From a virus (lineage: Duplodnaviria > Caudoviricetes), in the IMG/VR virus record IMGVR_UViG_3300043567_000723: DNA of 64,000 nt; one strand, 5' to 3'. Under the pieces are notes generated by a model. That model searched no databases, was not told the DNA's origin, and saw nothing but the letters and a program-made list of their open reading frames with translations. Of this stretch, positions 936 to 43,965 are shown piece by piece; position 1 is the stretch's first letter; every line of letters begins with the position of its first letter. The position numbers and the translations under genes are program-made.

Positions 936-1778
936 ATGGACGCGCGCGAATTCTTTGCCCTACTTTTCCGCCACGTGATTCTTATTCTAGCCGGCGCTCA
1001 TGTAGCGCTGGCCGGCACGCGGGACCCCAACACGCCAGACGAAAAGTACGTCGAGTTTGGCAAGCAGTTTCCGTCTGTGCTGCGCATCCGGGCAAATATC
1101 ATTGACCCCGAAAGTAAGTACCCCTACCAGTATGGCTCTGCAGTGGCTATTCGGCCGCACTGGATTCTTACGGCAGCGCATGTGTTAGCCGGCGCTGAGA
1201 ACCCCGTGGCGATTAAAGACGGCGACAAGAAGTTCGCGCTTGGCCCTGTGTTCGTCCATAAAGACTTTGAAGAAGAGACTGTAGGCTTTCACGACATCGC
1301 ATTGCTGTACTCGCCCGAAGATTTTGAGCTAAAGTTTTACACGCCGCTGTATACAGACAAAGATGAAGTTGGCAAGGCTGTGACGATTGCCGGCTATGGT
1401 TTCTACGGGACGTTTCATACGGGCGGCAAACAAATAGATAGCAATAAGCGCGCCGGGCATAACAAAATAGACAGCGCTGAACGCGCGGTTCTTTTATGCA
1501 GCCCCAGTGTGACAAACCGCATGCCGCTAGAATTCATGATTGCTTCTGGGGATTCCGGTGGTGGCTTATTTATCGGCAACGAATTAGCCGGGATTAACTC
1601 TTTTCTCATGGCTACTGACAAAAAACCCGACGGAAGTTACGGCGATGACGCGGCTTTTACCCGTGTGAGTTTGTACGCGGATTGGGTAGAATCACAGATC
1701 GCGGCGTATGAATTAAAGATAGCCGGCAAAGGCACGCTCGCGGCAGATCTAGATTTAATCTCCCCACCTGAAGAGTGA
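936..1778 (+). CDS. Trypsin-like serine protease (S1) with N-terminal signal/TM segment
   Basis: Catalytic triad motifs WILTAAHV, HDIAL, GDSGGGL; hydrophobic N-terminus. Confidence 0.92.
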   Translation: MDAREFFALLFRHVILILAGAHVALAGTRDPNTPDEKYVEFGKQFPSVLRIRANIIDPESKYPYQYGSAVAIRPHWILTAAHVLAGAENPVAIKDGDKKFALGPVFVHKDFEEETVGFHDIALLYSPEDFELKFYTPLYTDKDEVGKAVTIAGYGFYGTFHTGGKQIDSNKRAGHNKIDSAERAVLLCSPSVTNRMPLEFMIASGDSGGGLFIGNELAGINSFLMATDKKPDGSYGDDAAFTRVSLYADWVESQIAAYELKIAGKGTLAADLDLISPPEE

Positions 1779-2042: not shown

Positions 2043-4223
2043 ATGAGCGAACTTCCAAATAGTATTTCTAGCGCGGTTACGATATGGGCGGCTAAACAGG
2101 CTGACCTAAACCCTGATATTCAGCTGCAAGACCACCAGCAAAGAATCGCCGACAGAATCTCGGGCCAAGATCCCAGATTATTGGTCTATCACGGCCTAGG
2201 TTCGGGGAAATCTTTATCGGCGCTCGCTGCGGCAGAAGAAGCGCAGAACCAGAGCGGCGGGAATTACGGCGTCGTAGTCCCGGCGAGCTTGCGGGGAAAC
2301 TTCCAGAAAGAAATTGGCAAGTTCACGCATGACTCGAATCCAGAGATCATGAGCTACACGGGCTTAGCCTTGGGCAAGAACTTCCAAGAGCAGCCCGACA
2401 CGCTGATCATGGACGAAGCACATAGACTTCGCAATCCACGTTCAGGGGCAGCGCAAGCAGCAGCGCAAGCAGCGGCAAACGCCAAAAGACTCTTACTGCT
2501 CACAGGCTCGCCGATCACAAACTCGCCCAGTGACATGGCGAATTTGTTATCTATGCTGAACAACAAGCAAATTACGCCAGAAGAGTTTGAAGACCGCTAC
2601 GTAGGTTATAAGACAGTCCGGCCGGGCATCATGGGCTGGTTACGGGGCGCAAAGCCCGGCGTCAAGCCAGTCGTAAAGAACGAGGCTGAGTTACGCGCGC
2701 TCCTGAAGGGCAAAGTCGATTATCAGCCCAGCAAGACTCCCGACGGCGTGAACGTACAAGAAGAACAAGTCAAAGTGCCCTTATCAGCCGAGCAGCAAAA
2801 GATCCAAAAAGCTATTCGCACTAAAATTCCACCGGGTTTTCTCTGGAAGCTTGACCAAGAGTTTCCCCTAAGCCGCGACGAACTGGCGAAGTTAAATTCG
2901 TTTATGACGGGCATGCGCCAAGTGAGTCTGTCCACGCAGCCGTTTCGCGTGGACAAAGACCCGGCGAAAGCGTTTACACAGAGCGCGAAGTTACAAAAAG
3001 CATTTGAAGACCTGCGCGCTACGCTGAAAGAAGACAAGCGCAAAAAAGCTATTATCTACTCGAATTTTATTGACTCTGGCTTGGCCCCCTACGCGTCTGC
3101 GTTAGAAAAAGCCAAGATCCCGCATGCGTTTTTCCACGGCGGCGTCAGCCCAAAGGCGCGCCAAGCCGCCGTGGACGCATACAACACGGGCAAGCTTAAA
3201 GCTCTGCTCATTGGCCCTGCGGGCGCCGAAGGCTTGTCTACAAAAGGCACGAGTCTGATCCAGCTCTTAGATCCGCACTGGCATGAGTCGCGCAGTCAGC
3301 AGGCCAAGGGCCGTGGGTTGCGTTTTGACTCGCACGTGGGATTACCAGAAGAACTCAAGAACGTCGCAGTAAAAAGATATCTAAGTGCGTCGCAAAATCC
3401 CAGCTTGCTTGGCAAACTCATGGGCTACAAGCGCGAACGCACCGGCGACGAAGTTCTAGAAAGACTCACAGCCGAAAAAGAACAGATCAACGAAGAGTTT
3501 CGCCGGTTACTTCGCGAAGAAGGCTCGCAGTACGCAAACCAGCAGCAAGAAAAGCTTGGCGCTGCAGCTCCGCCAGACTTTCAGCCAGACTATACGCCGG
3601 GCCAGTTACACGGCATGGGTGTATACAAGTCTTTGTATGAACAAGAGGGCCCGAGATTAGCCAGCTTAGGCGAATGGAAGCCAGAATGGGTCACAGAGCA
3701 TGACCCCAAGGGCTGGCTGGAGTGGTACCAGAACTATAACGCCGGCCGTAGAATCCCCGACGAAGACATGCGGCAGATCAAGCGCTGGGCGAGTTTCAAA
3801 GCACGCCACGGCGGGCCATTTGTAAAGAAACCGTCGCCACGTAGAGGGTGGGCGCTACGAAACTGGGCGATTGACCCAGAGAAGCTAGTATCAAAATCCC
3901 GCGCGGGTGATATCAAAACCATGCTGCAAGAGTATCAAGAGAAAGAGCTGAAAAAATATCTTAAAAAACAGCCCATGCTGGCTGAAAAAACCAGCGCTAA
4001 TATCGCCGCGCCGTTAAAACTCCTGCAAAAGCATGTAATAGCTGTTAGTTCGCGGCCTCTTCCAAAGAAAAAGAAACGCCTGCTACAATATGTAACTGGT
4101 TTACCCCACCCCAAGGTGCCGGTGAAGCGCGTTATTGATAGCATCCTTGACGACGAGACTTCTCATGCCGCTCCCGATGATCTCGCCCAGCAAGCTGCCG
4201 GAGATGCTGCTGTCTCGTCGTAA
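2043..4223 (+). CDS. SNF2-like SF2 helicase/ATPase with fused C-terminal domain of unknown function
   Basis: YHGLGSGKS (Walker A), DEAH, LLLTGSP, QAKGRGLR (motif VI); C-terminal FQPDYTP...GWLEWY...GRR..DED.RQIKRW domain. Confidence 0.88.
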   Translation: MSELPNSISSAVTIWAAKQADLNPDIQLQDHQQRIADRISGQDPRLLVYHGLGSGKSLSALAAAEEAQNQSGGNYGVVVPASLRGNFQKEIGKFTHDSNPEIMSYTGLALGKNFQEQPDTLIMDEAHRLRNPRSGAAQAAAQAAANAKRLLLLTGSPITNSPSDMANLLSMLNNKQITPEEFEDRYVGYKTVRPGIMGWLRGAKPGVKPVVKNEAELRALLKGKVDYQPSKTPDGVNVQEEQVKVPLSAEQQKIQKAIRTKIPPGFLWKLDQEFPLSRDELAKLNSFMTGMRQVSLSTQPFRVDKDPAKAFTQSAKLQKAFEDLRATLKEDKRKKAIIYSNFIDSGLAPYASALEKAKIPHAFFHGGVSPKARQAAVDAYNTGKLKALLIGPAGAEGLSTKGTSLIQLLDPHWHESRSQQAKGRGLRFDSHVGLPEELKNVAVKRYLSASQNPSLLGKLMGYKRERTGDEVLERLTAEKEQINEEFRRLLREEGSQYANQQQEKLGAAAPPDFQPDYTPGQLHGMGVYKSLYEQEGPRLASLGEWKPEWVTEHDPKGWLEWYQNYNAGRRIPDEDMRQIKRWASFKARHGGPFVKKPSPRRGWALRNWAIDPEKLVSKSRAGDIKTMLQEYQEKELKKYLKKQPMLAEKTSANIAAPLKLLQKHVIAVSSRPLPKKKKRLLQYVTGLPHPKVPVKRVIDSILDDETSHAAPDDLAQQAAGDAAVSS

Positions 4224-4296
4224 ACTCTTTGAAGCTATCGCCGCGAACGTCGCAAAACGAAAAATTCAAAACTCCATTCAAGCCACAGGTGACAGA

Positions 4297-5934
4297 ATGA
4301 GCGTAACGCCGCAGCAATTCGGTATGCAACTGGGTCAGCAAGCAAAGCAGGCAAACTTAGGCAACGCTTTGCGCGGCCTTGGTATTCAAGCTGGTCGCGC
4401 TGGCTTACGCCTTGGTAACGCTGCCAAGCCGCTTGTCGATGAAGCCACAAGCATGGCGAACACTGGCGCGCAAAGATTGGGCCAGACGATGTTCGGCAAC
4501 CCTGTTCGCGCTGCTGTGTCGGGCGCTGGCTTAGCAACAGCTGGTCTTGCCTACGGTGATCATCTGGCGGCTAAGAACCAAGCGATGTCGCAGCTGAAAG
4601 ACGTTAACAACGACGTGCAGAAGTTCAAGTTAAATGGCGTGGGCAGCGGCATGAAGATGCCGCAAATGCCGTCTAATGGTGTAATGCCGCGCAGCACTGG
4701 CCAAGGCGGTCTTACGGGCGGCGGCGGTCCGTTGTCGATGTCTCTGGCCGGCAAGCAAGCCGGAATCGTACCGAGTGTGTGGGATGCTACTTCTAAAAGT
4801 CTTCAACAGCGCGCTTCTTTACTCCAAGACATGTTTGCAAACTTGCGGCCGCTGGCTGGGCGCAAAGGTTTAAATGCCGTTGGGGCTGCATTTAAACCAG
4901 AAAAATATAACGGTAACTGGGGTCGCGGTTTAACCACGCAGCATCTGAGCAAAATGACCGATGATGCGTCGCAACAGCTCGGTAGCGTGAGTGATAAATT
5001 AGAAAACCTGCAAGATCTTTTTCCATTAAAGAAAGCTTCGCTACTCTCGGCCCTTAGCGGCGGTTTGGGTGCTGGCGTCGGTGGCCTCGCTGGCGGTATG
5101 GGTGGCGGCATGATGGGTGCGCTTACCGGCGGCGCGTTAGGTGGCGCTCCGGGTGCTGGCATTGGTCTGCTCTCTGGCGGCGCGCTGGGCATGGGCGCTG
5201 GTGCGCATCTGGGCGGTAACATCGGCGCGAGCATTGGCAAGAAAAAGAAGAAAGACGACGAGCCTAAGAAAGAAGAATCGGCCGAAAAAGAAGAAAAATC
5301 CGATGAGGGCGAAGAAGAAGTTAAAAAGAGCGCCGCGGCTGTTTTAACTTTGCTGCAGAAAAACAACCCAGAGCAATTTAAAGCAGCGGCGGGCCCGGGC
5401 ACAGCGGAATTCGGCACGAAGGTGACGCCGACGGGTAGCCGACGTGCCGGCCCGATTGTAACTCAGCCGAAGCCGATTCGGATGCCGGTTGGTCCTGCTC
5501 CGGCGGCACGACCTGCGGCTGCTCCGGCTGCTGCTCCGGCGGCTGCTCCGGCGGCACGACCTGCGGCTGCTCCGGCTGCTGCTCCGGCGGCTGCTCCGGC
5601 GGCTGCTCCGGCGGCACGACCTGCGGCTGCTCCGGCTGCTGACCCGCGGCGCCAATATACGCCGTTTGATTGGAATAAATATCCGCACGACCAACAGAAA
5701 AATTTTGAGCGTGACGTGACACGGCGAATGTATACACAGTACGGCGTCCCCGAGCACGCTATGCGGATACCAAAAAGCGCGCCTGATCTATGGCAGAATG
5801 TGCCGCAAGACCAGCGAAAAATGATGGAACGCGATGTGCAAGAGCGGTTGTACGGCCAGTATGGTGGTGTGGAAGCGTTTAATAACTCGATGAGCGACTG
5901 GGCGCAGCGCGAAGCCACACCGCCCGCGCAGTAA
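4297..5934 (+). CDS. Gly/Ala-rich KxA-motif protein (putative internal head/ejection protein), 545 aa
   Basis: Start moved from 4135 to ATG 4297 (SD AGGTGA, no overlap with helicase). Leader QFGMQLGQQAKQA, glycine-zipper segment, acidic/basic linker, PAAA repeats. Confidence 0.7.
   Translation: MSVTPQQFGMQLGQQAKQANLGNALRGLGIQAGRAGLRLGNAAKPLVDEATSMANTGAQRLGQTMFGNPVRAAVSGAGLATAGLAYGDHLAAKNQAMSQLKDVNNDVQKFKLNGVGSGMKMPQMPSNGVMPRSTGQGGLTGGGGPLSMSLAGKQAGIVPSVWDATSKSLQQRASLLQDMFANLRPLAGRKGLNAVGAAFKPEKYNGNWGRGLTTQHLSKMTDDASQQLGSVSDKLENLQDLFPLKKASLLSALSGGLGAGVGGLAGGMGGGMMGALTGGALGGAPGAGIGLLSGGALGMGAGAHLGGNIGASIGKKKKKDDEPKKEESAEKEEKSDEGEEEVKKSAAAVLTLLQKNNPEQFKAAAGPGTAEFGTKVTPTGSRRAGPIVTQPKPIRMPVGPAPAARPAAAPAAAPAAAPAARPAAAPAAAPAAAPAAAPAARPAAAPAADPRRQYTPFDWNKYPHDQQKNFERDVTRRMYTQYGVPEHAMRIPKSAPDLWQNVPQDQRKMMERDVQERLYGQYGGVEAFNNSMSDWAQREATPPAQ
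5494..5646 (+). repeat. Coding tandem repeat, ~12-nt units (GCTCCGGCGGCT variants) encoding PAAR(PAAA)n
   Basis: Directly visible in DNA and translation. Confidence 0.9.
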
Positions 5935-5986
5935 CGCTATAAAAACAAGCCTTAAATTCGCCGGCGACGCGGCGTTACAGCCCCGG

Positions 5987-5992
5987 TATAAT
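5987..5992 (+). promoter_or_regulatory. Perfect TATAAT -10 box without a recognisable -35
   Basis: ccggTATAATtagc in the intergenic gap upstream of 6032. Confidence 0.45.
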
Positions 5993-6031
5993 TAGCTCTT
6001 CGAGGCACGGAAGCCTTTAGGAGACCGGAGC

Positions 6032-6382
6032 ATGGCGGCTCGATTTAAATATTATCAGGCCCTCCTGCGGACGCTCAAAAAGGACTGCCCTGCGGCATTT
6101 CCTGTCTCCGTGCGTCGCGTGCAGCTCTCGAAACTAGAGGGCCGTTGCTGGAAACACGGCAAGAAGTTCTACATCCAGATCGATAAAAGTCTGGATGAAT
6201 CTCGCGCCATTGACGTCTTGCTGCACGAATGGGCGCACGCGCGTGGCTGGAATCATCGGCTTGATACAGCTGTAGACGACGCGGCGTTTAATAAGCTCGC
6301 CCATGATGCTGCGTGGGGCGTTGCGTATGCCGAAGTGTATGTGCACTACGAGCGTATTTTCACAAGTCCAGCTGTGTTATGA
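6032..6382 (+). CDS. Small HExxH zinc metallopeptidase-like protein (SprT/ImmA-like)
   Basis: DVLLHEWAHAR motif after a beta-rich N-terminal half; SD AGGAG/GGAG upstream. Confidence 0.7.
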   Translation: MAARFKYYQALLRTLKKDCPAAFPVSVRRVQLSKLEGRCWKHGKKFYIQIDKSLDESRAIDVLLHEWAHARGWNHRLDTAVDDAAFNKLAHDAAWGVAYAEVYVHYERIFTSPAVL

Positions 6383-6516
6383 GCGGGCCCAAGAAGCCTG
6401 CGCCACTATCTCGGGAGTTCTTATTAGCGCAGAAAAAATGTTGCGGCAGAAAATGTCATAACTGCCCATATCTTCCCAAATACTCAGCCGGCAGCACGAA
6501 AGTAAAACCATGTTAA
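6379..6516 (+). CDS. Small Cys-rich protein (DUF5522-like), 45 aa
   Basis: ATG overlaps upstream TGA (ATGA); CCGRKCHNCPY resembles the CCGxGCxHCPY motif. Confidence 0.6.
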   Translation: MSGPKKPAPLSREFLLAQKKCCGRKCHNCPYLPKYSAGSTKVKPC

Positions 6517-6884
6517 AGTTTTGCGTCGTGTTGTTTTCGTGGCTAGAGCAGTGCTTACCAGTAGCATTGCGTCCACGGCGTATTCTCGACATGCGCCAGC
6601 GAGCCGGAGAATGGCGCAGAGTAAGGGCAGAACATTTAAAGAAATATCCCGTGTGCGAAGTCTGTGGCCGCGATAAAAATCTTATTGTGCACCATATTTT
6701 TCCGGTCAGCGTAGCGCCAGAGCTAGCGTTAGTGGAAAATAACCTGCTTACGATGTGCGAAACCCCATGTCACTTTATGTTTGGGCACTTTTTCAGCTAT
6801 CATTGTTACAATAGGGAAGTGCGTAGCATGGCCAAAAAGTTTCGCGCGCAGTTGCTCAAACGAAAATGTCAACCATTTAAATAG
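6510..6884 (+). CDS. HNH endonuclease
   Basis: CEVCG ... VHHIFP ... NNLLTMC ... CHFMFGH. Confidence 0.85.
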   Translation: MLKFCVVLFSWLEQCLPVALRPRRILDMRQRAGEWRRVRAEHLKKYPVCEVCGRDKNLIVHHIFPVSVAPELALVENNLLTMCETPCHFMFGHFFSYHCYNREVRSMAKKFRAQLLKRKCQPFK

Positions 6885-6892
6885 CGTGGATT

Positions 6893-7645
6893 ATGCAACC
6901 ATACGAGTTTGGTTACGCCGTGGGCTCGCAAATGAAACAAGCGGGCGTCTTGGGTGATATCGGCAGCGGTATTTCGAGTGCTGCCAGTGAGATGTGGAAT
7001 CCGACAACGAGCTTGGGCACAGCCGCAAACATCGCGGGCTACATGACGCCGGGCGTGGGTTCCGTACTGGCTGCCCGTGACTTGTATAACAACGTCAGTC
7101 AGGGCAATGTGCTGGGAAGTCTAGGCTCAGCCGGCATGATGGCGCTGGGGCTGATTCCGGGCGCTGGCTTACTCGGCGGCGCAGCCAAAGGACTCGCGCG
7201 TGGCGGTCGAGCTTTAATGGGTGGCGGTCGCGTAGCCCAGACAGTCGGCAAGGGGCTCAACGCCGCGGCTGAGGGCACTATGGCCGCATCCAGAGGCATG
7301 GTCGCGGCGAACCGCGCGGCCACTGGTATTAACTCAAACATATCGCAGGGCATTCAGAAGCATATTCCGCTGGCCCAAACTAGCTGGAAGTCTGTGGGTC
7401 CGATGTCCGTGCCCTTAAATCCGATCAAGTCCACAATGAACGCGGCTATTCGTAATCCGATTAATACGCTGGCCATGACGACCAGCTCGGCGCCGCCAGA
7501 AAACACAGCTGCGCAAATTGGCGCGCAGCAGCTCAGTGGAGCCGGGCCGATTACGCAGCCGGCTACGCCAGCCCCGCGAATTCCCACTTTAAACAGGCCG
7601 ATGGCGCCGGGTTCTTTCCGGCCGCAGCCCATTGCACGTTTTTAA
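6893..7645 (+). CDS. Gly/Ala-rich KxA-leader protein
   Basis: Leader MQPYEFGYAVGSQMKQA; hydrophobic Gly-rich helices. Confidence 0.75.
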   Translation: MQPYEFGYAVGSQMKQAGVLGDIGSGISSAASEMWNPTTSLGTAANIAGYMTPGVGSVLAARDLYNNVSQGNVLGSLGSAGMMALGLIPGAGLLGGAAKGLARGGRALMGGGRVAQTVGKGLNAAAEGTMAASRGMVAANRAATGINSNISQGIQKHIPLAQTSWKSVGPMSVPLNPIKSTMNAAIRNPINTLAMTTSSAPPENTAAQIGAQQLSGAGPITQPATPAPRIPTLNRPMAPGSFRPQPIARF

Positions 7646-7668
7646 CTAGGTTTAACTAGGAGCGTTTC

Positions 7669-8247
7669 ATGAATCCGTATGAGTTTGGCTTTGCCGTTGG
7701 TGCTATGGAGAAGACAGCGGCTATTAATTTGGGCACACTTGGCGCTCGGCTTGCACAGGCTGGTTCTTCTGCCTTAACTGGCGCGAAGACTATTAATACT
7801 GGCGCAAAGCATCTGGTGCGTGGCACTGGCAACGTGGTCGGCGGCCTTGGCAGTGTCGCTGACGCTGCTGGCTCGCTCGCAAAGGGCGTCGGCCGTGGCG
7901 CTATGCAACTTGGCCAGCGTACTAATTCTGTGGCTGACAATATGAACGGCGGCGTGATCAAAGACTTGCTGAAAGTGCTCGGTCACGGCACTCGCGCTGT
8001 TGGCCGCGTGACGCACAGTGCTGGTGGCGGCGCTGGACTGGTCGGTTCTGGTCTCAAGGGCACAGGGCGCGGCTTAAACAGCGTTTCGCAAATGGGCTAT
8101 GGCGTGCCGACTGCTGCGGCGCTTGGCTTAGGTGCCGCTGGTGCTGCCGTCGCGCCGAAAGTCCCGCTACCTAATGTGAACTTACGTTCGCCGCTGGACG
8201 TGGACTTTAGTTACAAGACGCGCAACCCCATTGAAGTGAATTGGTGA
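7669..8247 (+). CDS. Gly/Ala-rich KxA-leader protein
   Basis: Leader MNPYEFGFAVGAMEKTAA, near-identical to the 6893 leader; SD AGGAG. Confidence 0.75.
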   Translation: MNPYEFGFAVGAMEKTAAINLGTLGARLAQAGSSALTGAKTINTGAKHLVRGTGNVVGGLGSVADAAGSLAKGVGRGAMQLGQRTNSVADNMNGGVIKDLLKVLGHGTRAVGRVTHSAGGGAGLVGSGLKGTGRGLNSVSQMGYGVPTAAALGLGAAGAAVAPKVPLPNVNLRSPLDVDFSYKTRNPIEVNW

Positions 8248-8408
8248 TGTGCCCGATTTGTGAGAGCCCGCCGATTGAGATCCGCGGAAAATTAGTGTGC
8301 CCCTTTTGCCATATTATTCTAGAGACGTGTTGCGAAGGCGGCCGCTGCGATTATTCAAAAGAAACTATAGATAACAAAACAGATAACAAAACGGAAGAAC
8401 AACCATGA
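8247..8408 (+). CDS. Small zinc-ribbon protein, 53 aa (missing from ORF track)
   Basis: MCPICESPPIEIRGKLVCPFCHIILETCCEGGRCDY...; coupled at both ends (TGATG at 8245-8249, ATGA at 8405-8408). Confidence 0.7.
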   Translation: MCPICESPPIEIRGKLVCPFCHIILETCCEGGRCDYSKETIDNKTDNKTEEQP

Positions 8409-10741
8409 ACGAACTCCATGCTTTTGGTGCTGCGGCTCGTGCTGAACTAGAAAAAGAAGCGGCGCCGAATCTGGGCGCGATGGCTCGATCGCTGGGGAAT
8501 TACGCCACCAAGCGTGTGTTACCCGCGGCAAAAAACCTTGCCAACAAAGCGGTTGAAAAAGCCACGCCGGTTGTAAACAAAGCCACGACAGCGGCCAAGC
8601 CGTACGTAGACGATTTAGCGAATCGCGCGACTGGCGCTGCGAAAGCTGTCGCTGGTAATCCTACGGTACAAGGCGTCGCGTCACGGTTTGGCAACGCGGC
8701 AAATCGCGTAGCCACAGGTGTGGGTACGATTGGCCAGCTGGCGCAAGATGCGACGCGCGGTGGTCTTAATATAGCCGACGATGTTGCGCGTTATGCTATG
8801 AATGGCCCCGGTAGTGCGGCTGCGGCTGGCGGCAAGCTCGGCGACAAAGTAGTCCGCGGCGTGCAGACAGAAGCTGGCCGTGCATTCGGCACGAGCCCCG
8901 TCGGCGACAAGCTGAACCCACTAAATCTAGCCGCTGGCGGTGGCGCTATTTACGGCGCTGGCAAAGCAACTGGTTTGCTCGGCAGTGGAAGCGCTGACGT
9001 GGCAGATCCGACGCCGAATAACTTACAAGAACAGCAACATCGTTCGTATGACATGCAAAAGCAAATGCAGACGAACACGGGCGGTAATAATTCGCAAGGT
9101 TTAATGGGCATGTGGAACAGCCTGCCGCTCGAAGCTCGCTACGCTATTGGCGCTGGCGTTCCTTTGGCATTAGTCGGCGCTGTTATGGGCGGCAGAGGTA
9201 ACACTGGCGCTGGTCTGGGTATGGGCGCGCTTGGTTTAGGCGCCGCTGGTTTGGGCGCGGCTGGCGCGGGCATGTTTGGCGACGGTGCTCGACGCATGGT
9301 TGGCCAAGGTGCAAATGCGCTGTACAGCATGGTTGGCGGCCAGAGCGACCCCATGAGCCAGATGCGCACGCTCGGAAAGCTGAGCCCGGAGTTTGGCACC
9401 ACGGCGCTTATGGGCCGCGACCCGAATCTCAGCGCAGAGCAAGCTCGCGGCATGTATGACTTTATGACGCAGAACCAAGAAGCTATTGAGCGCCTGATGC
9501 CGCAGCTGCAAAACAGCAGCGTGACAAGCGCGCCAGCAATAAAAGCCGGCGCGTATTTCGCCGAGAAGTTAGCTGGCCGCTGCTGGACCGGCTACGAACC
9601 AGTGCCGGGCAAGAAGCCGTATAGCAATGACTCGTGCCGGCCTGTAAGTAAGAAGAAAAAGAAGAGCGAAAAGAAAGCTGCCAGTCCGTTTGGGCCCGCG
9701 CAGCCGATCACTGGTGCTCGGCCGACGATGACGCAAATGCCGCCGAAGCCTGCTGAGAAACCAGTGGCAAAGCGCGATGTCAGCAAGCTTCCGCCGTATG
9801 TCTCGCAAGGCCAGCAGGCAGCAGAGCAGGCAGCCAAGCAGCCGCCAATGAACACGATGGTAAAGACCCAAGCGGCAAAGAAGTTTGCCGGTGTTGCGGG
9901 CCAAGGCAAGACCACGATGAACGCGACGCCCTCAAGCCGTGGCGATAAGAAGTTAGTAGACGACAAGCAGCGCGAGACTAATAGCCCGGTACCGACAGAC
10001 GCCAAGAACAACACGCAAGAAGCTGGTTTGACAGCCGCCGAGAAGCAAGCGTTTGGGGCGGCACTCGGTCGCGCTATTGGTACCGGCGCTAAGGGCTTAG
10101 TGCGCGGCGCTGGTCGAGCCGCTTTTAACGTGGCCGAAGGCGCGGCGAACGCGCTAGCCGACGGCGCAAATTACGTTGGAAAGAACGTTCTTAATATGAA
10201 ACCTTCTTTGCCGTCAGGCGTGCAGCAGGCCGCAAAGAAAGCCCCGGCGTTAGCTGATCCGCCGGGTTGGAATGCACCGTATAATCCCAACATAAGATAT
10301 GCTGATTCAGCTGCTGGAAAAGCTTTTGCCGCCAGCTCGGCTGCTCAACCAGCGCAGTCTATGGGTCAGAAGATCGTCGGCGGCGTCAACGCAGCAGCTC
10401 AAGGTGCGGCTGCCGCTGGCCGTGGCGTCGGAGCCGCTGTAAACGCTGGCGCAAACATCGTAAAGGGTGTAGCGCCGCTCGCGCAGGGTGTCGTCGGCGG
10501 TGTTGGCGCTGCAGCGCAGGGATTAGGTACTGGTGTAAATGTGGCCGGCAAGGCGCTTTCAGCGGCCTCCAAAAGCCCGCTGACCGCTATCCCGACTGCG
10601 GCAGCTGGTATTTACGGCGCCTCGCAAATGGGCGGCATGATGCCCAAGGGCATGCCGAAATTTCAATCGCCCATCACGTGGGAAAATAATAATAACGGTG
10701 TAAAGCCCATGCAGTCGGGCCGCATTAATCAGCCGCTGTAA
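8405..10741 (+). CDS. Large Gly/Ala-rich multi-module KxA protein (putative internal head protein)
   Basis: Leader HAFGAAARAELEKEAA; internal EKLAG, EKKAA, EKQAFG; CWTGY module; glycine zippers. Confidence 0.75.
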   Translation: MNELHAFGAAARAELEKEAAPNLGAMARSLGNYATKRVLPAAKNLANKAVEKATPVVNKATTAAKPYVDDLANRATGAAKAVAGNPTVQGVASRFGNAANRVATGVGTIGQLAQDATRGGLNIADDVARYAMNGPGSAAAAGGKLGDKVVRGVQTEAGRAFGTSPVGDKLNPLNLAAGGGAIYGAGKATGLLGSGSADVADPTPNNLQEQQHRSYDMQKQMQTNTGGNNSQGLMGMWNSLPLEARYAIGAGVPLALVGAVMGGRGNTGAGLGMGALGLGAAGLGAAGAGMFGDGARRMVGQGANALYSMVGGQSDPMSQMRTLGKLSPEFGTTALMGRDPNLSAEQARGMYDFMTQNQEAIERLMPQLQNSSVTSAPAIKAGAYFAEKLAGRCWTGYEPVPGKKPYSNDSCRPVSKKKKKSEKKAASPFGPAQPITGARPTMTQMPPKPAEKPVAKRDVSKLPPYVSQGQQAAEQAAKQPPMNTMVKTQAAKKFAGVAGQGKTTMNATPSSRGDKKLVDDKQRETNSPVPTDAKNNTQEAGLTAAEKQAFGAALGRAIGTGAKGLVRGAGRAAFNVAEGAANALADGANYVGKNVLNMKPSLPSGVQQAAKKAPALADPPGWNAPYNPNIRYADSAAGKAFAASSAAQPAQSMGQKIVGGVNAAAQGAAAAGRGVGAAVNAGANIVKGVAPLAQGVVGGVGAAAQGLGTGVNVAGKALSAASKSPLTAIPTAAAGIYGASQMGGMMPKGMPKFQSPITWENNNNGVKPMQSGRINQPL

Positions 10742-10806
10742 GGAGCGTGCGTATCGCTTAAATATCAAAACCTGTTTCTATACCCCACCAAGGAAGGCGG
10801 GACTGT

Positions 10807-12091: not shown

Positions 12092-12096
12092 GCTAT

Positions 12097-12336: not shown

Positions 12337-12372
12337 GCCCGCATAAAAAAGTGTTAAATAAAGTGTTACACC

Positions 12373-32828: not shown

Positions 32829-32899
32829 GTAGGATATAAGGACTTCGGCGCGGTAAATTATTGCCGTGTCATTATTTGTGCGCAGCATGGAGGCTGGCC

Positions 32900-35284
32900 G
32901 TGTATAACAAAAAAGCTAAAGAGTCGTCCGTTAAGCATCTGCTCAACGTCATGCGGTCCTATGACCGGACCCAGACTAAGTACGCTGATTTAGGCGGAAA
33001 AGGTGATGACACTTCTTTCGAGCAGTCGTTTAGCAATCTTGCGCACGCCTATCTCCGCGACTCAGCACCCAAGCTCCTTGACCACGAGATCGGTTTCCAG
33101 CTTCTCGACCGTAATCGCGAGAACACCAAGGCTGTCGGTGTATTTGCGTTTAAAGTTGGTTCGATGTGGCTGTACGCGCCCGTGTTCTTTTTAAACGGCG
33201 ACCTCAAGGGCCACGAACTGCTGTATATCAAGAATCAGGACATGTTCGTGCCGCTCAAGGAAAACTGGATTAACTATCTGATCAACCGCAAGCCCAACAT
33301 TCTTGGTAGCGGCGTCGAGCGCAATCTGTCTAATCTCGGCCAGCGCCAGCCTGACTTTACGCAACTCTCTCGTAGCCCGTCGAAGTTTGGTTCGGCGAAA
33401 CCCACGCTTAAAGAGATGATGACGGCCGCTATGCCGGCGTTCGCCAAGAGCGCCACATTAAATACACAACAAACCTTCGCTGAACTCGGTGAAGCGTTAA
33501 ACCTGAAAACGTTCTTAAAGCAGGCTGGTTTAGACGTAATCGGCTCGTTAATTAAAATGTGCCAGTACGCGCCGCAGGTAGCCAACGCAATCGACGAGTT
33601 TCACGGTTTAGATATCATCAAAGAAGCAATGGCTGCTGCCAAGCTTCGCGAAGCCGCCTCGACTACCAAAGTTGCCAGCGTACTGTCGGAAGCACCTAAG
33701 ACGCCCGAAGCGGCCAAGGGTCTCAAGGTCATCGCGTATGACGCTACAGTTCAGACCAAACTGCCGGCTGGTCATACAGAAGAAGATCAAGAGAAGTTAC
33801 TGCGCGACGGTGTGCTGATCCAAGACCAACGCGACCGCGACAATGTCTCGATCCCTTACAACATTCAGGTCGAGAAAAAGCTGTTCAATCCGACCGAAAG
33901 CGGCCTGTACGAGATCCTCGTCAAGCCCGGCGATATTGAGCGCTGCTACGTGGCTGTGCACCCGCAAGGCGCTGCCAAGCGCGAGAACTTCATTACTGTT
34001 GTGCGCACAGACGGCAAGCCTGACTGGCTTAATACCCGCGCTGACCAAGTGTTTGCGCTGTCGCGCGTTGAGGGCGAAGAGTTTGACAAGTGGTTCGACG
34101 CCCTGCCCGAAGCCAACAGCGTGCCCAGCAAAGACGCGCGGTATATCGCACTTAGCAAGCGCGGTGACTGTACGGCTCCGTTCCGCGTTATTCGCGAGTA
34201 CGGCAAGTCGGAGCACGACATGCAGTGCTACGAAGTGCATCTTGAAGATCACTCGAAGTATCCGCCCAAGGGCAGCATTTGCGGTAGCTGCTATACAGAC
34301 CCTCTGAACTATGACAAGTGGCGTGACGGTGTTCGCATTCACCTGAACGGTAAGAAGGGTTCCAGCCTGCGCGCGAGCATGGGCGACATCTTCGTGCCGG
34401 AAGGTTTCAAGCTCCTCAAGGTGAGCAAGGGCGCAGACGATGAGGACACGGTTAAAGATCAGGACGCATGTGGTTGCGGCGAGAGTGATCCGCCGGCCCT
34501 GCAGCCCGGCAACCTCGTTGACGCGCAACTGGCGCTGATGGGCAAGACTGCCGCCTTAACTGTGTACCACAACGGCACAGAGGTCAGCATTAACAAAGAA
34601 GCCAGCCTAAGCCCCATCAAGGCGCTGGTCACACTTGTTGAGCACCACGGCCTGCGTGAAGAAGCTGCCCGCGAGATCTTAAAGCAAGCGTCTGCCAAGA
34701 AGAAGTTTGAGTGCCGCGTGAAGTACGCCGATCCGTACGGCGGCGCAATGCTCGTCAACAGCGCCCCGAACGCCCCGACAGATCCGGGCCCGGTTATGGG
34801 CGGCGAAAGCATCATGGGCACCAGCGTTCCGACCCAGCTCGGTATTGACGTTGGTCTGCCTGTGTCTGGCATGAGCGCGAGCAACACAGACCGCAGTGTT
34901 TACAACCCCAACACGCAGTTTGATAAGCGAGACGTGCGGTCTATCGTTGACGCCGCGCAGAGCGGCCAGCGCGAAGTATTTGACACGGCCATGGTGGGCA
35001 CAATGTTGCGCGCTGTACGTGACGACTCGCTGGTTGACCGGTATATGGGCGAGCTGACCAAGGGGTTAGACAAACTTGGCCGCATTTTATTTATGTTTTA
35101 CTGGCACGGCGATCGGTTTGCTGAGCGTTATGGCAAGTCCGACATGCCGGAACTAGAAGATTCGCTGCGCAACGCGTTTGAAATGCTCGGCGACGTTATT
35201 CTGTTCCTCAAGCAGAAAACAATTGAACCGTATCCCGAAGAGGCCGCGTCGGATATCGATCTTGGCGCTACCGCTAACGTTTAA
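32900..35284 (+). CDS. Large KxA-rich virion (head) protein, 794 aa
   Basis: GTG 32900 with CATGGAGG RBS; many KxA motifs (TKYAD, AKSAT, LKQAG, TKVAS, GKTAA, VKYAD). Confidence 0.7.
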   Translation: MYNKKAKESSVKHLLNVMRSYDRTQTKYADLGGKGDDTSFEQSFSNLAHAYLRDSAPKLLDHEIGFQLLDRNRENTKAVGVFAFKVGSMWLYAPVFFLNGDLKGHELLYIKNQDMFVPLKENWINYLINRKPNILGSGVERNLSNLGQRQPDFTQLSRSPSKFGSAKPTLKEMMTAAMPAFAKSATLNTQQTFAELGEALNLKTFLKQAGLDVIGSLIKMCQYAPQVANAIDEFHGLDIIKEAMAAAKLREAASTTKVASVLSEAPKTPEAAKGLKVIAYDATVQTKLPAGHTEEDQEKLLRDGVLIQDQRDRDNVSIPYNIQVEKKLFNPTESGLYEILVKPGDIERCYVAVHPQGAAKRENFITVVRTDGKPDWLNTRADQVFALSRVEGEEFDKWFDALPEANSVPSKDARYIALSKRGDCTAPFRVIREYGKSEHDMQCYEVHLEDHSKYPPKGSICGSCYTDPLNYDKWRDGVRIHLNGKKGSSLRASMGDIFVPEGFKLLKVSKGADDEDTVKDQDACGCGESDPPALQPGNLVDAQLALMGKTAALTVYHNGTEVSINKEASLSPIKALVTLVEHHGLREEAAREILKQASAKKKFECRVKYADPYGGAMLVNSAPNAPTDPGPVMGGESIMGTSVPTQLGIDVGLPVSGMSASNTDRSVYNPNTQFDKRDVRSIVDAAQSGQREVFDTAMVGTMLRAVRDDSLVDRYMGELTKGLDKLGRILFMFYWHGDRFAERYGKSDMPELEDSLRNAFEMLGDVILFLKQKTIEPYPEEAASDIDLGATANV

Positions 35285-35293
35285 AGGTGAATT

Positions 35294-35677
35294 ATGCCTA
35301 GTACAGTTTGGTCCGGTAGTGTTTCGTTTACAGCCACCGGCAGCCAGTCGAACACAATCGCTGTACCGATGCCGCACCGCGCGACATTGCGCGGCTACAG
35401 CCTCGTCGAGTCGGCGGGTGGCGCAACTGGCAATTTTACGGCTGCGCTGTACACCAGCAAACAAGACACGGCACCGAACAACACGCTTCCGGCCGACTCT
35501 TTTAAATTAATGTCGTTTGACCAGACCGCAGCGTCTAATAACAATCTGAACTTGTCGTACGTTAATCGCGACGGAACGCCAACAAATCCGCAGCGTTATC
35601 TCTACCTCAAAATCACACCGGCTGCGACAAAAACGCTGGTGTTTTCTGTAACCGTCGATACCCCGACGCTTCGATAA
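35294..35677 (+). CDS. Small beta-rich putative structural protein
   Basis: Thr/Ser-rich, alternating hydrophobic pattern; SD AAGGTGA. Confidence 0.6.
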   Translation: MPSTVWSGSVSFTATGSQSNTIAVPMPHRATLRGYSLVESAGGATGNFTAALYTSKQDTAPNNTLPADSFKLMSFDQTAASNNNLNLSYVNRDGTPTNPQRYLYLKITPAATKTLVFSVTVDTPTLR

Positions 35678-36625
35678 ATGAATAACACGTTGCGTGATAG
35701 CCCGCGTCGTGCTCCGCACTGGCGCTGGCTGCGTGCTGTTGAAATCGACGGCGGTGGTTTTCGCGCGTCCCGGAATATTGACGGGCCCGATGGTTTTATC
35801 TGGATTCGCCGCGCCCTAAAACTCAAGCGGCATTTTGAGCGAGCTAATAACAGGCCGCAGGCGGTATACGCGCTGCTGTACCGAGACCGCGACCTGTTCT
35901 GGGCGCATGCGATTTGGAGCGAAGATAAGTCGCCAACGCGCTGGGCAATAGAGGCGCGTATTTTAGCTGGCCAGACAGACGAAGAAATTGCGCAAAAAGC
36001 TGGCACAGAACCGGGCGTCATCGCAGCTTACGCAAATACATTTTTCGACGTACGCGATAAATTAGATCGCATGGATTACGTCCAAAACGTAGTTATGGCT
36101 GACGCCGTAACGCGTGGGCTACAGGAGCGGCACTATGACCTGCTCTGGAAATTGCTCGGTTTTCGCGGCGGTCCTCACGTAATTGATGCAGTAATTAATA
36201 AGTTTCCAAACGTGAATCGCCCAGAAAACGCGGACGGTGTTTCTGGCTATTTTCAAGATATGGCGATCAGTAGCATGAAATATAAGGCCGCCATAGCCAG
36301 TTTGAGCGTTCCAATTAATACACATACACAGTTACCATTGCTCGATTCTTTTGTAAAATATGTAGAAATCGAGCGGACGACGGATAGTACCAGCAAGGCA
36401 CACGCAACGATTGTCGAAAATATCGGCGCGATGTTATCTGCACTTCCGTTCAAAGTGGGTACAAAACTGGATTCGGCAGCTATAAAAATGTTACCTTACG
36501 ATAACGGGGCTGCCGAGTTACGAAACGATGAAATGATGATTGTGGCTACTGGCGGCTCGCTGGATAATCAAACGATCATCCAAGCACTGCATTACCCGGA
36601 GAATACCGATGCGGGCACTAAGTAA
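35678..36625 (+). CDS. Hypothetical protein (head module)
   Basis: 315-aa ORF abutting the upstream stop. Confidence 0.75.
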   Translation: MNNTLRDSPRRAPHWRWLRAVEIDGGGFRASRNIDGPDGFIWIRRALKLKRHFERANNRPQAVYALLYRDRDLFWAHAIWSEDKSPTRWAIEARILAGQTDEEIAQKAGTEPGVIAAYANTFFDVRDKLDRMDYVQNVVMADAVTRGLQERHYDLLWKLLGFRGGPHVIDAVINKFPNVNRPENADGVSGYFQDMAISSMKYKAAIASLSVPINTHTQLPLLDSFVKYVEIERTTDSTSKAHATIVENIGAMLSALPFKVGTKLDSAAIKMLPYDNGAAELRNDEMMIVATGGSLDNQTIIQALHYPENTDAGTK

Positions 36626-37994
36626 AGAAGCTGAGCAAAAATTAATTAGCGCTATTGAACGCGCGGCCTCCCTTGTTAACGATGGCGCCAACCCAAACGA
36701 CGCCATTGTTAAAAGCGCTTCGGACGCTAACATCCCAGCCGGGCACATTAATCTTATGGTGCACGCCTACAACACTGGCCGTACCACGAAGCAGCGCGAG
36801 CAGGGTTCTAATCCGCTAGAGAAAGCAGCAGACTTTCAATTAGCAAATGCAGATACCGTTATGGCGCGCTTATATCCGCAACAAGTCAAGACATCGGCAG
36901 AACTGACGCAGTCGTCTGTTGTGTCGGCTGAGTACGCTATATCGCCGCGCGGTTTCATCGGCCGCCGAAACGCTGAGATGCAGAAAGCTGCCGCCGCTCA
37001 GTCGATTCTCCCGGAAAAGACTTTCGTACCAGCACCCCGCGACGATCATTCAGCCGCCCGTCGTGCTTACAGCCAGCAAGTTGCCGAAAAGCGTGCGGCT
37101 GAAGAACTTCGTCGGCAAGCAACCGCGGCGCATATGAAAGCTGCCGCGGCCATGGAAGATCTTTGTCATTACTTTCGTGTACCCGGCAGCATGGCGTTTA
37201 ACGACGCTGTTCGCGAGGTCGGTTTGCGGCTTGGTGACATCGGCGTCTCAACACTCAAGAAAGCCGCTGCTGTATACCCGCAGTTAGAGAAACAAGCCGC
37301 CACGAACGAGAACTTTTTCGGTAATTTGCCCGTGGTCACGCTTGTTGAGGACGTTATTCGCGCCGTTGGTTCGTATAACGACGCGCAAAGCAAAATTGCC
37401 GCAACGCAAACCAAGGCAGCTGAATTCGGTAAGAAAGAAGTACCAGAAATTATTACAGGTTCGATCCTGCATGACCCCAAGACAGCTCCGCTAGCTTTAA
37501 AAGTGGCTGCTGTTGTCGGTAAAGGAAAAAAAAAACCTGATAGTCCAGAACCTGCCCCGTTAGGCTCGTATAGCGGCGTGTTATCGCACATGGGCAAAAT
37601 TATGGGTCCCGGCGCTGCTATTGCTAAAAGCGAAACAGACAGCGACCCGACGCGGCAAAAAGCCAAAGCGTTTATGAGCATGTCTGACGCCGACCACGAA
37701 AATAAACTTCAGCAGATTAAATCGCGCGGCGTGTTAAATGATCTCATCCTGAACGACCCTGTAATCTCTGGTTATGACCCGCACGAAGTAGCTTCTGCTT
37801 ATAATCAGATCGCCGAAATGGCTCCTAACTTTACCGGACAAAGCGCGGCTATGCAGGCGTTACTTCGCAAACGGTTAGAGGCGGGTCAGCTGGCTGATTT
37901 TGACGTAAAGCAAATGATTGAAATGGAAAAACTGCGCGCTGAGAGTTTAAAGTCAAATCTTGAAGCGCAGCAAAAAGCTCGTGAACTCCTGTAG
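36609..37994 (+). CDS. Helical KxA-rich protein
   Basis: ATG 36609; VKTSA, QKAAA, EKQAA, TKAAE, LKVAA. Confidence 0.7.
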   Translation: MRALSKEAEQKLISAIERAASLVNDGANPNDAIVKSASDANIPAGHINLMVHAYNTGRTTKQREQGSNPLEKAADFQLANADTVMARLYPQQVKTSAELTQSSVVSAEYAISPRGFIGRRNAEMQKAAAAQSILPEKTFVPAPRDDHSAARRAYSQQVAEKRAAEELRRQATAAHMKAAAAMEDLCHYFRVPGSMAFNDAVREVGLRLGDIGVSTLKKAAAVYPQLEKQAATNENFFGNLPVVTLVEDVIRAVGSYNDAQSKIAATQTKAAEFGKKEVPEIITGSILHDPKTAPLALKVAAVVGKGKKKPDSPEPAPLGSYSGVLSHMGKIMGPGAAIAKSETDSDPTRQKAKAFMSMSDADHENKLQQIKSRGVLNDLILNDPVISGYDPHEVASAYNQIAEMAPNFTGQSAAMQALLRKRLEAGQLADFDVKQMIEMEKLRAESLKSNLEAQQKARELL

Positions 37995-38002
37995 GACTTA
38001 GC

Positions 38003-38983: not shown

Positions 38984-38985
38984 AC

Positions 38986-40452: not shown

Positions 40453-40498
40453 ACGGAAGCTAATCGCTTAACACGATTAGACCCCAAAGGAGAAAGTC

Positions 40499-41878: not shown

Positions 41879-41895
41879 TAACACGGAGGTTTTTA

Positions 41896-42321: not shown

Positions 42322-42376
42322 GTTTCGTCCCTTACCTGAACACGTTTCCAATTGCTAAAGACACGGAGGTCTAACA

Positions 42377-42964: not shown

Positions 42965-43003
42965 TCTATCCCTAACTAATTCAGGAACATGGAGGTTCCC
43001 AAA

Positions 43004-43930: not shown

Positions 43931-43965
43931 TGTCGTGTAAGGATTAACACCTAAAGGAGCACGTT

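What the first reader, a model, noticed from the sequence alone, without database searches (positions are those of the whole stretch)
4297..10741. Shared N-terminal leader (FG-x3-G/A...K-x-A): a candidate capsid-targeting signal
Four otherwise dissimilar proteins start with the same 15-20-aa leader: VTPQQFGMQLGQQAKQA (4297), MQPYEFGYAVGSQMKQA (6893), MNPYEFGFAVGAMEKTA (7669), MNELHAFGAAARAELEKEA (8405). A variant occurs at 23931 (EKEAFKLGFLQRCAE). T4 internal proteins are known to share a short N-terminal capsid-targeting sequence that the prohead protease removes. The same logic here, with a different motif, would be a modular, possibly engineerable cargo-loading tag.
Basis: partly seen in the sequence, partly recalled or inferred. 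Interest (0 to 1): 0.8.

Follow-up and report, generated by a model that had tools for sequence, protein, structure and literature searches.

The report
Shared leader on four phage proteins
Four neighbouring, fast-evolving Gly/Ala-rich proteins of an uncultured ~200-kb lake phage share a short N-terminal peptide that ends in the motif most over-represented in the phage's head proteins, so it is probably a head-loading leader that the head protease cuts off, but nothing shows packaging or cleavage, and the leader is found on these four proteins only.

Summary
The shared leader is real. Profiles built from one family's leaders find the others as the top hits in the genome (B/C E about 1e-8, D 0.012, A 0.06). 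B and C leaders share 11 of 17 residues, six through different codons. Outside the leader the four proteins show no detectable homology, but all are basic, about 30% Gly+Ala, with a glycine-zipper-like stretch.

- In A the leader is not N-terminal; about 44 conserved coding residues precede it.
- The 23931 "variant" is not significant.
- The leader is not a general tag. Nine related genomes or fragments were searched: each of the six near-complete ones has exactly four copies, all in one syntenic cluster. A search of 1.84 billion proteins found only these families.

The leader has two boxes: Y/F/Q-E-F-G-hydrophobic-x-hydrophobic-G, then hydrophobic-E-K-x-A. In an unbiased scan, K-x-A is the most over-represented spaced pair in head-module proteins, both here (64 vs 30) and in the distant cultured relative Salmonella phage Arash (46 vs 21).

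Best reading (about 0.4): a T4-like capsid-targeting propeptide cut at K-x-A by the prohead protease. Cleavage and packaging are untested. This scan has reported T4-type leaders in other genomes; this one has a different motif and a different protease lineage.

The parts
4165..5934 (+). Gene A. Likely start near 4165. The conserved N-terminal segment runs 4165-4296; the leader-like motif (M-S-V-T-P-Q-Q-F-G-M-Q-L-G-Q-Q-A-K-Q-A) is at 4297-4353. After that come a Gly/Ala-rich body with a glycine-zipper stretch, a Lys/Glu-rich tract, and a strain-specific C-terminal extension with (P-A-A-A)n repeats.
   Evidence: upstream coding constraint; composition
6893..7645 (+). Gene B. The leader is at 6893-6943 (M-Q-P-Y-E-F-G-Y-A-V-G-S-Q-M-K-Q-A). 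The conserved glycine-zipper core is at about residues 60-120.
7669..8247 (+). Gene C. The leader is at 7669-7719 (M-N-P-Y-E-F-G-F-A-V-G-A-M-E-K-T-A). G7, E14, K15 and A17 are invariant in 15 homologues down to 39% identity.
8405..10741 (+). Gene D. The leader is at 8405-8461 (M-N-E-L-H-A-F-G-A-A-A-R-A-E-L-E-K-E-A). Further internal E-K-x-A sites include one directly before an R-C-W-x-G-Y-E-x-V-P-G module (residues about 387-430).
6032..6382 (+). Small HExxHx5H protein, a weak SprT-like metalloprotease match. It lies between A and B in all relatives checked and is 70-84% identical, far more conserved than A-D.
6510..6884 (+). HNH-endonuclease-like gene (assigned from its sequence motifs) between the SprT-like gene and B; conserved in relatives.
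8247..8408 (+). Small Cys-rich (zinc-ribbon-like) ORF. Its start overlaps the stop of C (TGATG) and its stop overlaps the start of D (ATGA), which suggests translational coupling of C, this ORF and D.
   Evidence: weak conservation
936..1778 (+). Trypsin-like serine protease with an N-terminal hydrophobic segment; a conserved member of the syntenic block.
2043..4223 (+). SNF2-type helicase directly upstream of A. Its short N-terminal extension ends A-A-K-Q-A just before the helicase core.
   Evidence: Arash homologue gp217 lacks the extension and is abundant in virions (PMC10585845)
38986..40452 (+). Prohead-protease-like protein, the candidate enzyme for K-x-A cleavage. It carries 14 K-x-A sites itself.
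   Evidence: Arash homologue gp222
32861..44352 (+). Head module: large 807-aa protein, internal and scaffold-like proteins, protease, and major capsid protein at 42989-43930. K-x-A and [LMIVF]-x-K-x-A are specifically over-represented here.

Best explanation
A, B, C and D are a conserved set of four basic, Gly/Ala-rich proteins with glycine-zipper stretches, most likely internal head or ejection proteins. Each is made with a two-box leader.

Box 1 is (M-x-P)-Y/F/Q-E/Q-F-G-hydrophobic-x-hydrophobic-G. It is proposed to dock the precursor onto a component of the assembling prohead core.

Box 2 follows after a variable spacer and reads hydrophobic-E-K-x-A (the last residue is occasionally S or G). 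It is proposed to be a cleavage site of the phage's prohead protease (38986-40452). The same protease would cut the many K-x-A sites in scaffold-like proteins, other head proteins and itself. Cleavage would remove 17-19 residues from B, C and D and about 60 from A, leaving the mature proteins inside the head.

Shown here: the motif, its conservation, its restriction to four syntenic genes, and the head-specific enrichment of K-x-A in two distantly related phages.

Inferred: docking, cleavage, the identity of the protease, virion location, and any role after ejection.
For: - The leader is statistically real and is kept at the protein level.
- It lies at the exact N-terminus of B, C and D in all nine related genomes or fragments examined.
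- E14, K15 and A17 are invariant in the C family down to 39% identity. K-x-A (rarely K-x-S or K-x-G) is kept in nearly all leaders although the spacer to the F-G box varies in length.
- The segment right after the leader is hypervariable or indel-rich in A (identity 0.03) and B (0.24), as expected for an exposed linker.
- An unbiased scan of all residue pairs at spacings 0-2 puts K-x-A first in head-module proteins here (64 vs 30.1, z 6.2) and in Arash (46 vs 21.0, z 5.4). L-x-K is second and M-x-K fifth among the one-residue-gap pairs in Arash.
- [LMIVF]-x-K-x-A occurs 28 times against 7.3 expected in the head module. The ratio is 0.97 in tail genes and 1.02 in the 25,000 residues upstream. 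In Arash the head module has 39 against 6.2, and other genes 26 against 29.
- 55 of 64 head K-x-A sites are kept in three relatives, often with changed flanks.
- K-x-A marks module borders. It directly precedes the R-C-W-x-G-Y-E module in three different contexts, and it brackets that module where it is inserted into a B-like protein.
- A protease-like gene sits in the head module.
- Arash virions contain Gly/Ala-rich glycine-zipper proteins encoded in the head module (gp221, gp224), RNA polymerase and the SNF2-like helicase (PMC10585845). The lineage therefore appears to package many non-shell proteins.
- Precedents for N-terminal capsid-targeting peptides exist in T4 (PMC8442874, PMC3012670) and P1 (PMC9024508).
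Against: - There is no virion proteome, N-terminal sequence or expression data for this phage or any close relative.
- The leader is confined to four adjacent orthologous genes and never appears on other cargo. Shared ancestry, or a shared partner unrelated to the capsid, would explain it equally well.
- The RNA polymerase subunits, likely virion proteins by analogy with Arash, have no leader.
- In A the motif is internal.
- A-D as whole proteins are not enriched in K-x-A.
- Similarity continues past K-x-A (x-x-L-G), so the conserved unit may be one roughly 30-residue element rather than a tag plus a cut site.
- The cluster lies 22 kb from the head module and contains two other protease-like genes.
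- The protease assignment rests on a structural look-alike lead and on position only. There is no Pfam or PDB match, and the AF2 model is poor.
- The Arash virion list is very inclusive (116 proteins) and gives no peptide-level termini.
Confidence: 0.4

Rival explanations
1. The leader is a common interaction or assembly element of a four-protein complex that acts outside the capsid, for example a membrane-associated complex in the infected cell. It is not removed, and the K-x-A at its end is unrelated to head maturation.
For: - There are exactly four carriers, always together, and partly translationally coupled (C, the small Cys-rich ORF and D).
- All four have glycine-zipper-like hydrophobic stretches.
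- The cluster lies among non-structural genes (SNF2, HNH, PhoH).
- In A the motif is internal.
- Conservation runs on past K-x-A.
Against: - It does not explain why the leader ends in exactly the motif that is the top outlier in head proteins of two distant phages.
- It does not explain why a hypervariable linker follows the leader.
- Glycine-zipper Gly/Ala-rich proteins of the relative Arash are found in virions (PMC10585845).
Confidence: 0.25
2. The leader is the recognition and cleavage sequence for a protease encoded in the same cluster, either the SprT-like HExxHx5H protein at 6032-6382 or the trypsin-like protease at 936-1778. This would be a dedicated precursor-processing module independent of the prohead protease.
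For: Both protease-like genes are strictly syntenic with A-D in every relative checked. The SprT-like gene lies between A and B and is much better conserved (70-84% identity) than its neighbours. An earlier case in this scan, where a shared tag turned out to belong to a neighbouring enzyme (e1-127136), shows that this possibility has to be weighed.
Against: - K-x-A enrichment is centred on the head module, 22-40 kb away, and also occurs in Arash.
- The SprT-like match is weak (E 0.003, below Pfam's cutoff).
- The trypsin-like enzyme lacks Asp at the position expected for Lys/Arg specificity (read from the sequence), and the putative cut is after Ala.
Confidence: 0.15
3. A-D are old tandem paralogues whose low-complexity bodies have drifted beyond recognition. 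The N-terminus is simply the slowest-evolving remnant and has no tag-like function.
For: - The four are adjacent and share composition and architecture.
- There is no transfer of the leader to other proteins anywhere.
- The leader is not the best-conserved part of B or D.
Against: - Invariant E-K-x-A in the C family, and maintenance through synonymous change, indicate direct selection on the peptide.
- The two boxes are kept while the spacer varies.
- A remnant would not be expected to end in the head-specific motif.
Confidence: 0.15

Closest known systems
[quoted passage not shown]
   Same: - A short N-terminal peptide is shared by a few basic, otherwise dissimilar proteins.
- The peptide ends in the motif that the head protease is thought to cut.
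- The concept is load into the prohead, then trim (PMC8442874, PMC3012670).
- There is a loose resemblance in an aromatic/Gln-Glu-Phe core. One relative's D leader reads M-T-P-Q-E-F-I-A-V.
   Different: - The cut motif differs: hydrophobic-E-K-x-A here, (L/I)-x-E in T4.
- The leader here is longer and has two boxes.
- The protease gene gives no match to T4-type (S77) or any other Pfam protease model.
- There are only four fixed orthologous carriers, not a variable cargo set.
- One carrier has the motif internally.
- Nothing is shown experimentally.
N-terminal packaging signal of phage P1 DarB
   Same: An N-terminal segment (first 30 residues sufficient) directs a protein into the capsid (PMC9024508).
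   Different: The P1 authors found no consensus among Dar N-termini. Here a clear consensus exists, but no function has been shown.
Propeptides of head and ejection proteins in giant phiKZ-like phages (for example SPN3US), cut by the prohead protease
   Same: A large phage with many head-internal proteins, some processed by the prohead protease (abstracts of PMC7411985 and PMC10052503). The virion also carries RNA polymerase (from general knowledge; shown for Arash in PMC10585845).
   Different: The cleavage motif there is (A/S/G)-x-E (from my own knowledge, not checked here). No shared F-G box leader is described.
Herpesvirus assemblin cleavage consensus (V/L/I)-x-A then S
   Same: Cleavage after Ala with a defined P3 residue, by a protease of the fold shared with phage prohead proteases (from my own knowledge). 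It is a functional analogy for K-x-A followed by a small residue.
   Different: P3 is Lys here. There is no evidence of relatedness beyond the general fold lead.

Membership tests
T4-type capsid-targeting-sequence system | The same short peptide sits at the extreme N-terminus of several otherwise unrelated proteins | tested here: met
   Met for B, C and D (stops 4-6 codons upstream), with no homology outside the leader. Not met for A, where about 44 coding residues precede it.
T4-type capsid-targeting-sequence system | The leader ends at the cleavage motif of the phage's own prohead protease | tested here: inconclusive
   The leader ends in hydrophobic-E-K-x-A, and K-x-A is the top head-specific motif in this phage and in Arash. 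That the protease cuts there is inferred, not shown.
T4-type capsid-targeting-sequence system | Sequence relationship to the T4 CTS (M-K-T-Y-Q-E-F-I-A-E) and the (L/I)-x-E cut site | tested here: not met
   The consensus here is M-x-P-Y/F-E-F-G-Y-x-V-G...E-K-x-A. Only a loose Y/Q-E-F resemblance exists. The T4 sequence is taken from PMC8442874.
T4-type capsid-targeting-sequence system | The tag occurs on a variable, exchangeable set of cargo proteins | tested here: not met
   Exactly four carriers in each of six near-complete relatives, always the same orthologues in the same order. A profile search of 1.84 billion representatives and an IMG/VR pattern scan found only these families. Some module variation exists downstream within A, B-like and D proteins.
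T4-type capsid-targeting-sequence system | Carriers are inside virions, the leader is absent from the mature protein, and the leader is sufficient to load a foreign protein | not testable with these tools
   No cultured close relative. The nearest cultured phage, Arash (major capsid protein about 30% identical), has no leader-bearing genes.
HK97/S78-type prohead serine protease (for gene 38986-40452) | Match to the family's sequence model | tested here: not met
   No Pfam protease hit even at E up to 10. The PHROG hit has no assigned function. No PDB sequence match.
HK97/S78-type prohead serine protease (for gene 38986-40452) | Protease fold, conserved His/Ser, and position in the head module | tested here: inconclusive
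   The ESM Atlas model of residues 11-256 aligns to S78 clusters (TM 0.68 by the match). My own AF2 model was too poor to search with (pLDDT 49). His103 and Ser164 are invariant in 27 homologues and kept in Arash gp222. The gene lies just upstream of the scaffold-like gene at 40499-41878 and 2.5 kb upstream of the capsid gene at 42989-43930.

The most novel reading that the evidence does not exclude
The F-G box plus hydrophobic-E-K-x-A leader is a true capsid-loading and release signal. It is read by a non-T4 prohead protease with Lys-P3/Ala-P1 specificity, in an abundant and entirely uncultured lineage of ~200-kb freshwater phages. That lineage probably packages its own RNA polymerase and SNF2 helicase. 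A-D are the membrane-active proteins it ejects, and K-x-A is a lineage-wide code that marks every protein and module processed in the head.
Probability: 0.3. Interest if true: 0.65.

Novelty: new variant of a known kind. Interest (0 to 1): 0.45.

Why it matters
If the reading holds, head-internal and ejected proteins of a very common but uncultured group of lake phages could be listed from sequence alone. More than 1,000 protease homologues turned up in metagenomes. It would add a second, unrelated example of the T4 'target, then trim' logic, with a different protease specificity (cut after Ala, Lys at P3). It would also offer a candidate tag for loading proteins into large capsids.

The K-x-A part can be tested now in a cultured relative, Salmonella phage Arash. 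As things stand, the finding is a well-supported motif with a plausible but unproven function, and its reach is narrow: four proteins.

Tried and rejected
- Complex prediction of the protease domain (residues 1-275) with the first 40 residues of C returned no verdict.
- AF2 models were too poor to use: protease domain pLDDT 49, and C pLDDT 46, mostly helix.
- A profile search of the protease against PDB sequences found nothing relevant.
- Pfam and PHROGs gave nothing for A-D. ESM Atlas look-alikes for B and D were uninformative.
- B- and C-family profiles found no homologue in Arash, and tblastn of B found none in the cultured-phage collection.
- An apparent shared C-terminal motif (F/L-R/Q-S-P-I/V) in B, C and D was not significant in a profile search or by hhalign. 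I dropped it.
- The 23931 'variant' is not significant (E 67).
- The resemblance to the T4 CTS (Y-Q-E-F; Q-E-F-I-A in one relative) is treated as a curiosity, not as evidence of homology.
- No RNA holder was listed among public sequencing runs. All holders are lake or freshwater metagenome DNA.
- Sigma-70 promoter and terminator scans of 1-16500 were at chance level. A repeated ATAACAAAAC motif before D is not a general upstream element.
- The Arash paper's supplement lists gene features only, in the part read. It has no peptide-level data, so the 86.6% coverage of the capsid protein cannot be assigned to a missing N-terminus.

Full report
CONTEXT. The window is bases 78697-142696 of a 157.5-kb IMG/VR phage contig estimated to be 77% complete. 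Genes run almost entirely on the + strand. The window holds:
- a trypsin-like protease, an SNF2 helicase and PhoH;
- a fused beta/beta' RNA polymerase gene plus a second beta' piece;
- a head module at 32861-44352 with a protease-like gene and a major capsid protein;
- contractile-tail genes and a sigma factor.

The nearest cultured phages are Salmonella phage Arash and three Vibrio phages, whose capsid proteins are 27-31% identical. Close uncultured relatives of 194-205 kb are common in lake metagenomes.

THE OBSERVATION. The four genes are A (4297-5934 as first read), B (6893-7645), C (7669-8247) and D (8405-10741). All carry F-G-x3-G/A followed by K-x-A near their start.

A profile of 19 leaders from five genomes finds just these four in the six-frame translation of the contig (E 6.5e-11 to 1.2e-6). 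The next hit has E 2.3, and the proposed variant at 23931 has E 67.

To avoid circularity I built profiles from one family only. The C-family leader profile ranks B (1.7e-8), D (0.012) and A (0.06) directly after C itself. The B-family profile finds C at 1e-8.

B and C leaders share 11 of 17 residues, and six of those use different codons. Selection therefore acts on the peptide, not on a recent DNA duplicate or an RNA element.

With the leader cut off, profile-profile comparison of the four families gives at most 22% probability over 16-19 columns. They are not detectably homologous. They are, however, the same kind of protein: 30-33% Gly+Ala, net basic, with one or two uncharged Gly/Ala-rich stretches of 19-26 residues that look like glycine zippers.

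TWO CORRECTIONS.

First, A does not begin with the leader. The 24 codons between the SNF2 stop and the ATG at 4297 differ between relatives mostly at third positions (for example 1/0/10 and 4/4/13 by codon position). The peptide they encode (...LSRRKLFE..RKIQNSIQATGDR) is kept in more distant relatives too. The protein probably starts near 4165, which places the leader about 44 residues in. Only one relative (L004) has an A gene that starts at the leader. B, C and D have stops 4-6 codons upstream and are truly N-terminal.

Second, the leader is not the best-conserved part of B or D. In A and B it is followed by a hypervariable, indel-rich segment.

HOW FAR THE LEADER REACHES. I searched nine related genomes or fragments, six of them 95-100% complete. 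Each of the six near-complete genomes has exactly four copies, and so do two fragments (estimated 12% and 22% complete). The ninth, a 59%-complete fragment, has two significant copies plus a weak D-like one. All copies sit in one block: large TM protein, trypsin-like protease, SNF2, A, SprT-like protein, HNH, B, C, (small Cys-rich ORF), D, PhoH.

The neighbours are 70-84% identical in these relatives. B is only 31-33% identical and C 41-49%, so A-D evolve fast inside a stable frame.

A search of 1.84 billion representative proteins with the leader profile returned only A- and B-family members plus one spurious repeat protein. An exact back-translated pattern scan of IMG/VR returned B-family genes and one 77-residue chance ORF. 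Arash has no leader and no A-D homologue. The leader is therefore a property of one conserved four-gene set, not a widely reused tag.

ANATOMY OF THE LEADER. Alignments show two boxes separated by a spacer of variable length.
- Box 1 is (M-x-P)-Y/F/Q-E/Q/D-F-G-hydrophobic-x-hydrophobic-G. Its alternating large and small residues would suit either a beta-strand or a GxxxG helix face. This is my reading of the sequence; the AF2 model of C is helical but has low confidence.
- Box 2 is hydrophobic-E-K-x-A. In the C family, G7, E14, K15 and A17 are invariant across 15 sequences down to 39% identity. The last residue is occasionally S or G.

LINK TO THE HEAD. Other first-stage notes on this genome suggested a K-x-A cleavage code, so I tested it without presupposing the motif.

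Among all residue pairs at spacings 0, 1 and 2, K-x-A is the strongest outlier in head-module proteins here (64 observed, 30.1 expected from composition, z 6.2). It is also the strongest in the head module of Arash (46 vs 21.0, z 5.4), where L-x-K ranks second and M-x-K fifth among the one-residue-gap pairs.

[LMIVF]-x-K-x-A occurs 28 times against 7.3 expected in the head module. The ratio is 0.97 in tail genes and 1.02 in the 25,000 residues upstream of the window. In Arash the figures are 39 vs 6.2 for gp218-gp226 and 26 vs 29 for the other genes in the 91 kb examined. The reverse pair A-x-K is at expectation.

Of the 64 head sites, 55 are kept in all three close relatives, often with altered flanks. 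Ala in the motif is better conserved than other Ala (0.89 vs 0.74, p 0.007), while the effect for Lys is not significant.

K-x-A also marks module borders. It directly precedes an R-C-W-x-G-Y-E-x-V-P-G module in D of this phage, in D of a relative, and in a B-like protein of another relative, where the inserted module is bracketed by two K-x-A sites. It also ends the N-terminal extension of the SNF2 helicase just before the helicase core. The Arash homologue lacks that extension.

A short linear motif concentrated in protease, scaffold-like and internal head proteins is what prohead-protease sites look like in T4 and in giant phages. That is the most economical reading, but it remains an inference.

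THE PROTEASE. Gene 38986-40452 has no Pfam, NCBI-style or PDB match. The ESM Atlas model of its residues 11-256 aligns to HK97/S78 prohead-protease clusters (TM 0.68 by the match). His103 and Ser164 are invariant in 27 homologues and kept in Arash gp222. The gene sits just upstream of the scaffold-like gene (40499-41878) and 2.5 kb upstream of the capsid gene (42989-43930). My own AF2 model was too poor to search with. I treat the assignment as likely but unproven.

WHAT ARASH ADDS. The Arash paper reports RNA polymerase beta as the most abundant virion protein, the SNF2-like helicase gp217 as abundant, and the head-module proteins gp218-gp226 in the particle (PMC10585845). Two of these, gp221 and gp224, are Gly/Ala-rich proteins with glycine-zipper stretches. 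This lineage therefore packages many non-shell proteins, including proteins of the same type as A-D. The list is very inclusive (116 proteins), gives no termini, and Arash has no A-D, so this is circumstantial.

MOST LIKELY MECHANISM (confidence about 0.4).
1. A-D are made as precursors.
2. Box 1 docks them to the prohead core.
3. After shell assembly the head protease cuts at box 2, as it does at K-x-A sites across the head proteins.
4. The mature basic glycine-zipper proteins stay with the DNA and may act on host membranes after ejection.

Steps 1-4 are all inferred. Only the sequence patterns are shown.

RIVALS.
- A common assembly element of a four-protein complex that acts outside the capsid (0.25).
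- A recognition site for the cluster's own SprT-like or trypsin-like protease (0.15).
- A slowly evolving remnant of old paralogy (0.15).

The first two fit the strict four-gene synteny well. They do not explain why the leader ends in the head-specific motif.

COMPARISON WITH KNOWN SYSTEMS. The logic matches the T4 capsid targeting sequence, a roughly 10-residue N-terminal peptide shared by IPI-III and cut once by the head protease (PMC8442874, PMC3012670). It also resembles the N-terminal packaging signal of P1 DarB (PMC9024508).

It is not a member of the T4 system. The peptide, the cut motif and the protease family all differ, and the carriers are a fixed set rather than exchangeable cargo. 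This scan has already reported T4-type leaders in several marine phages. The present case is a different motif in a different lineage, and a related K-x-A note exists for another genome of this group.

VERDICT. This is a new variant of a known kind of system with narrow reach, and it is untested experimentally. Interest 0.45.

Noticed in passing
window 32861-44352; Arash locus L002 12019-20897: K-x-A (fuller form [LMIVF]-x-K-x-A) is the single most over-represented spaced residue pair in head-module proteins of this phage and of Salmonella phage Arash. It is a candidate lineage-wide prohead-protease cleavage code. It can be tested in Arash, which is cultured.
   Followed up: partly
window 9557-9700 (D residues about 385-432); L006 about 12590-12740; L024/L031 B-like gene: A small two-Cys module (R-C-W-x-G-Y-E-x-V-P-G...S-C-R-P-V plus a Lys-rich tail) is always immediately preceded by K-x-A. 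It sits in D here but directly behind the leader of a B-like protein in another relative. It has no Pfam match.
   Followed up: partly
window 2043-2120: The SNF2 helicase has a short N-terminal extension ending A-A-K-Q-A just before the helicase core. In a relative the longer extension contains Q-F-G...K-Q-A. The Arash homologue gp217 lacks the extension and is abundant in virions.
   Followed up: partly
window 5400-5934: Gene A here has a C-terminal extension of about 160 residues, with (P-A-A-A)n repeats and two copies of a motif about 40 residues long. The extension is absent from A in close relatives and from a near-identical metagenomic protein (P0043).
   Followed up: no
window 16359-16434: A tRNA-Asn (GTT) gene. 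The ORF listed from 16374 starts inside it, so that gene's true start must lie downstream.
   Followed up: partly
In Arash the homologous subunits are the most abundant virion proteins by spectral count.
   Followed up: no
locus L031 (G008) D gene, N-terminus: One relative's D leader reads M-T-P-Q-E-F-I-A-V and shares Q-E-F-I-A with the T4 capsid targeting sequence M-K-T-Y-Q-E-F-I-A-E. This is probably chance or convergence.
   Followed up: no
window 8245-8249 and 8405-8408: The stop of C overlaps the start of a 54-aa Cys-rich ORF (TGATG), and that ORF's stop overlaps the start of D (ATGA). This suggests coupled translation of the three.
   Followed up: no
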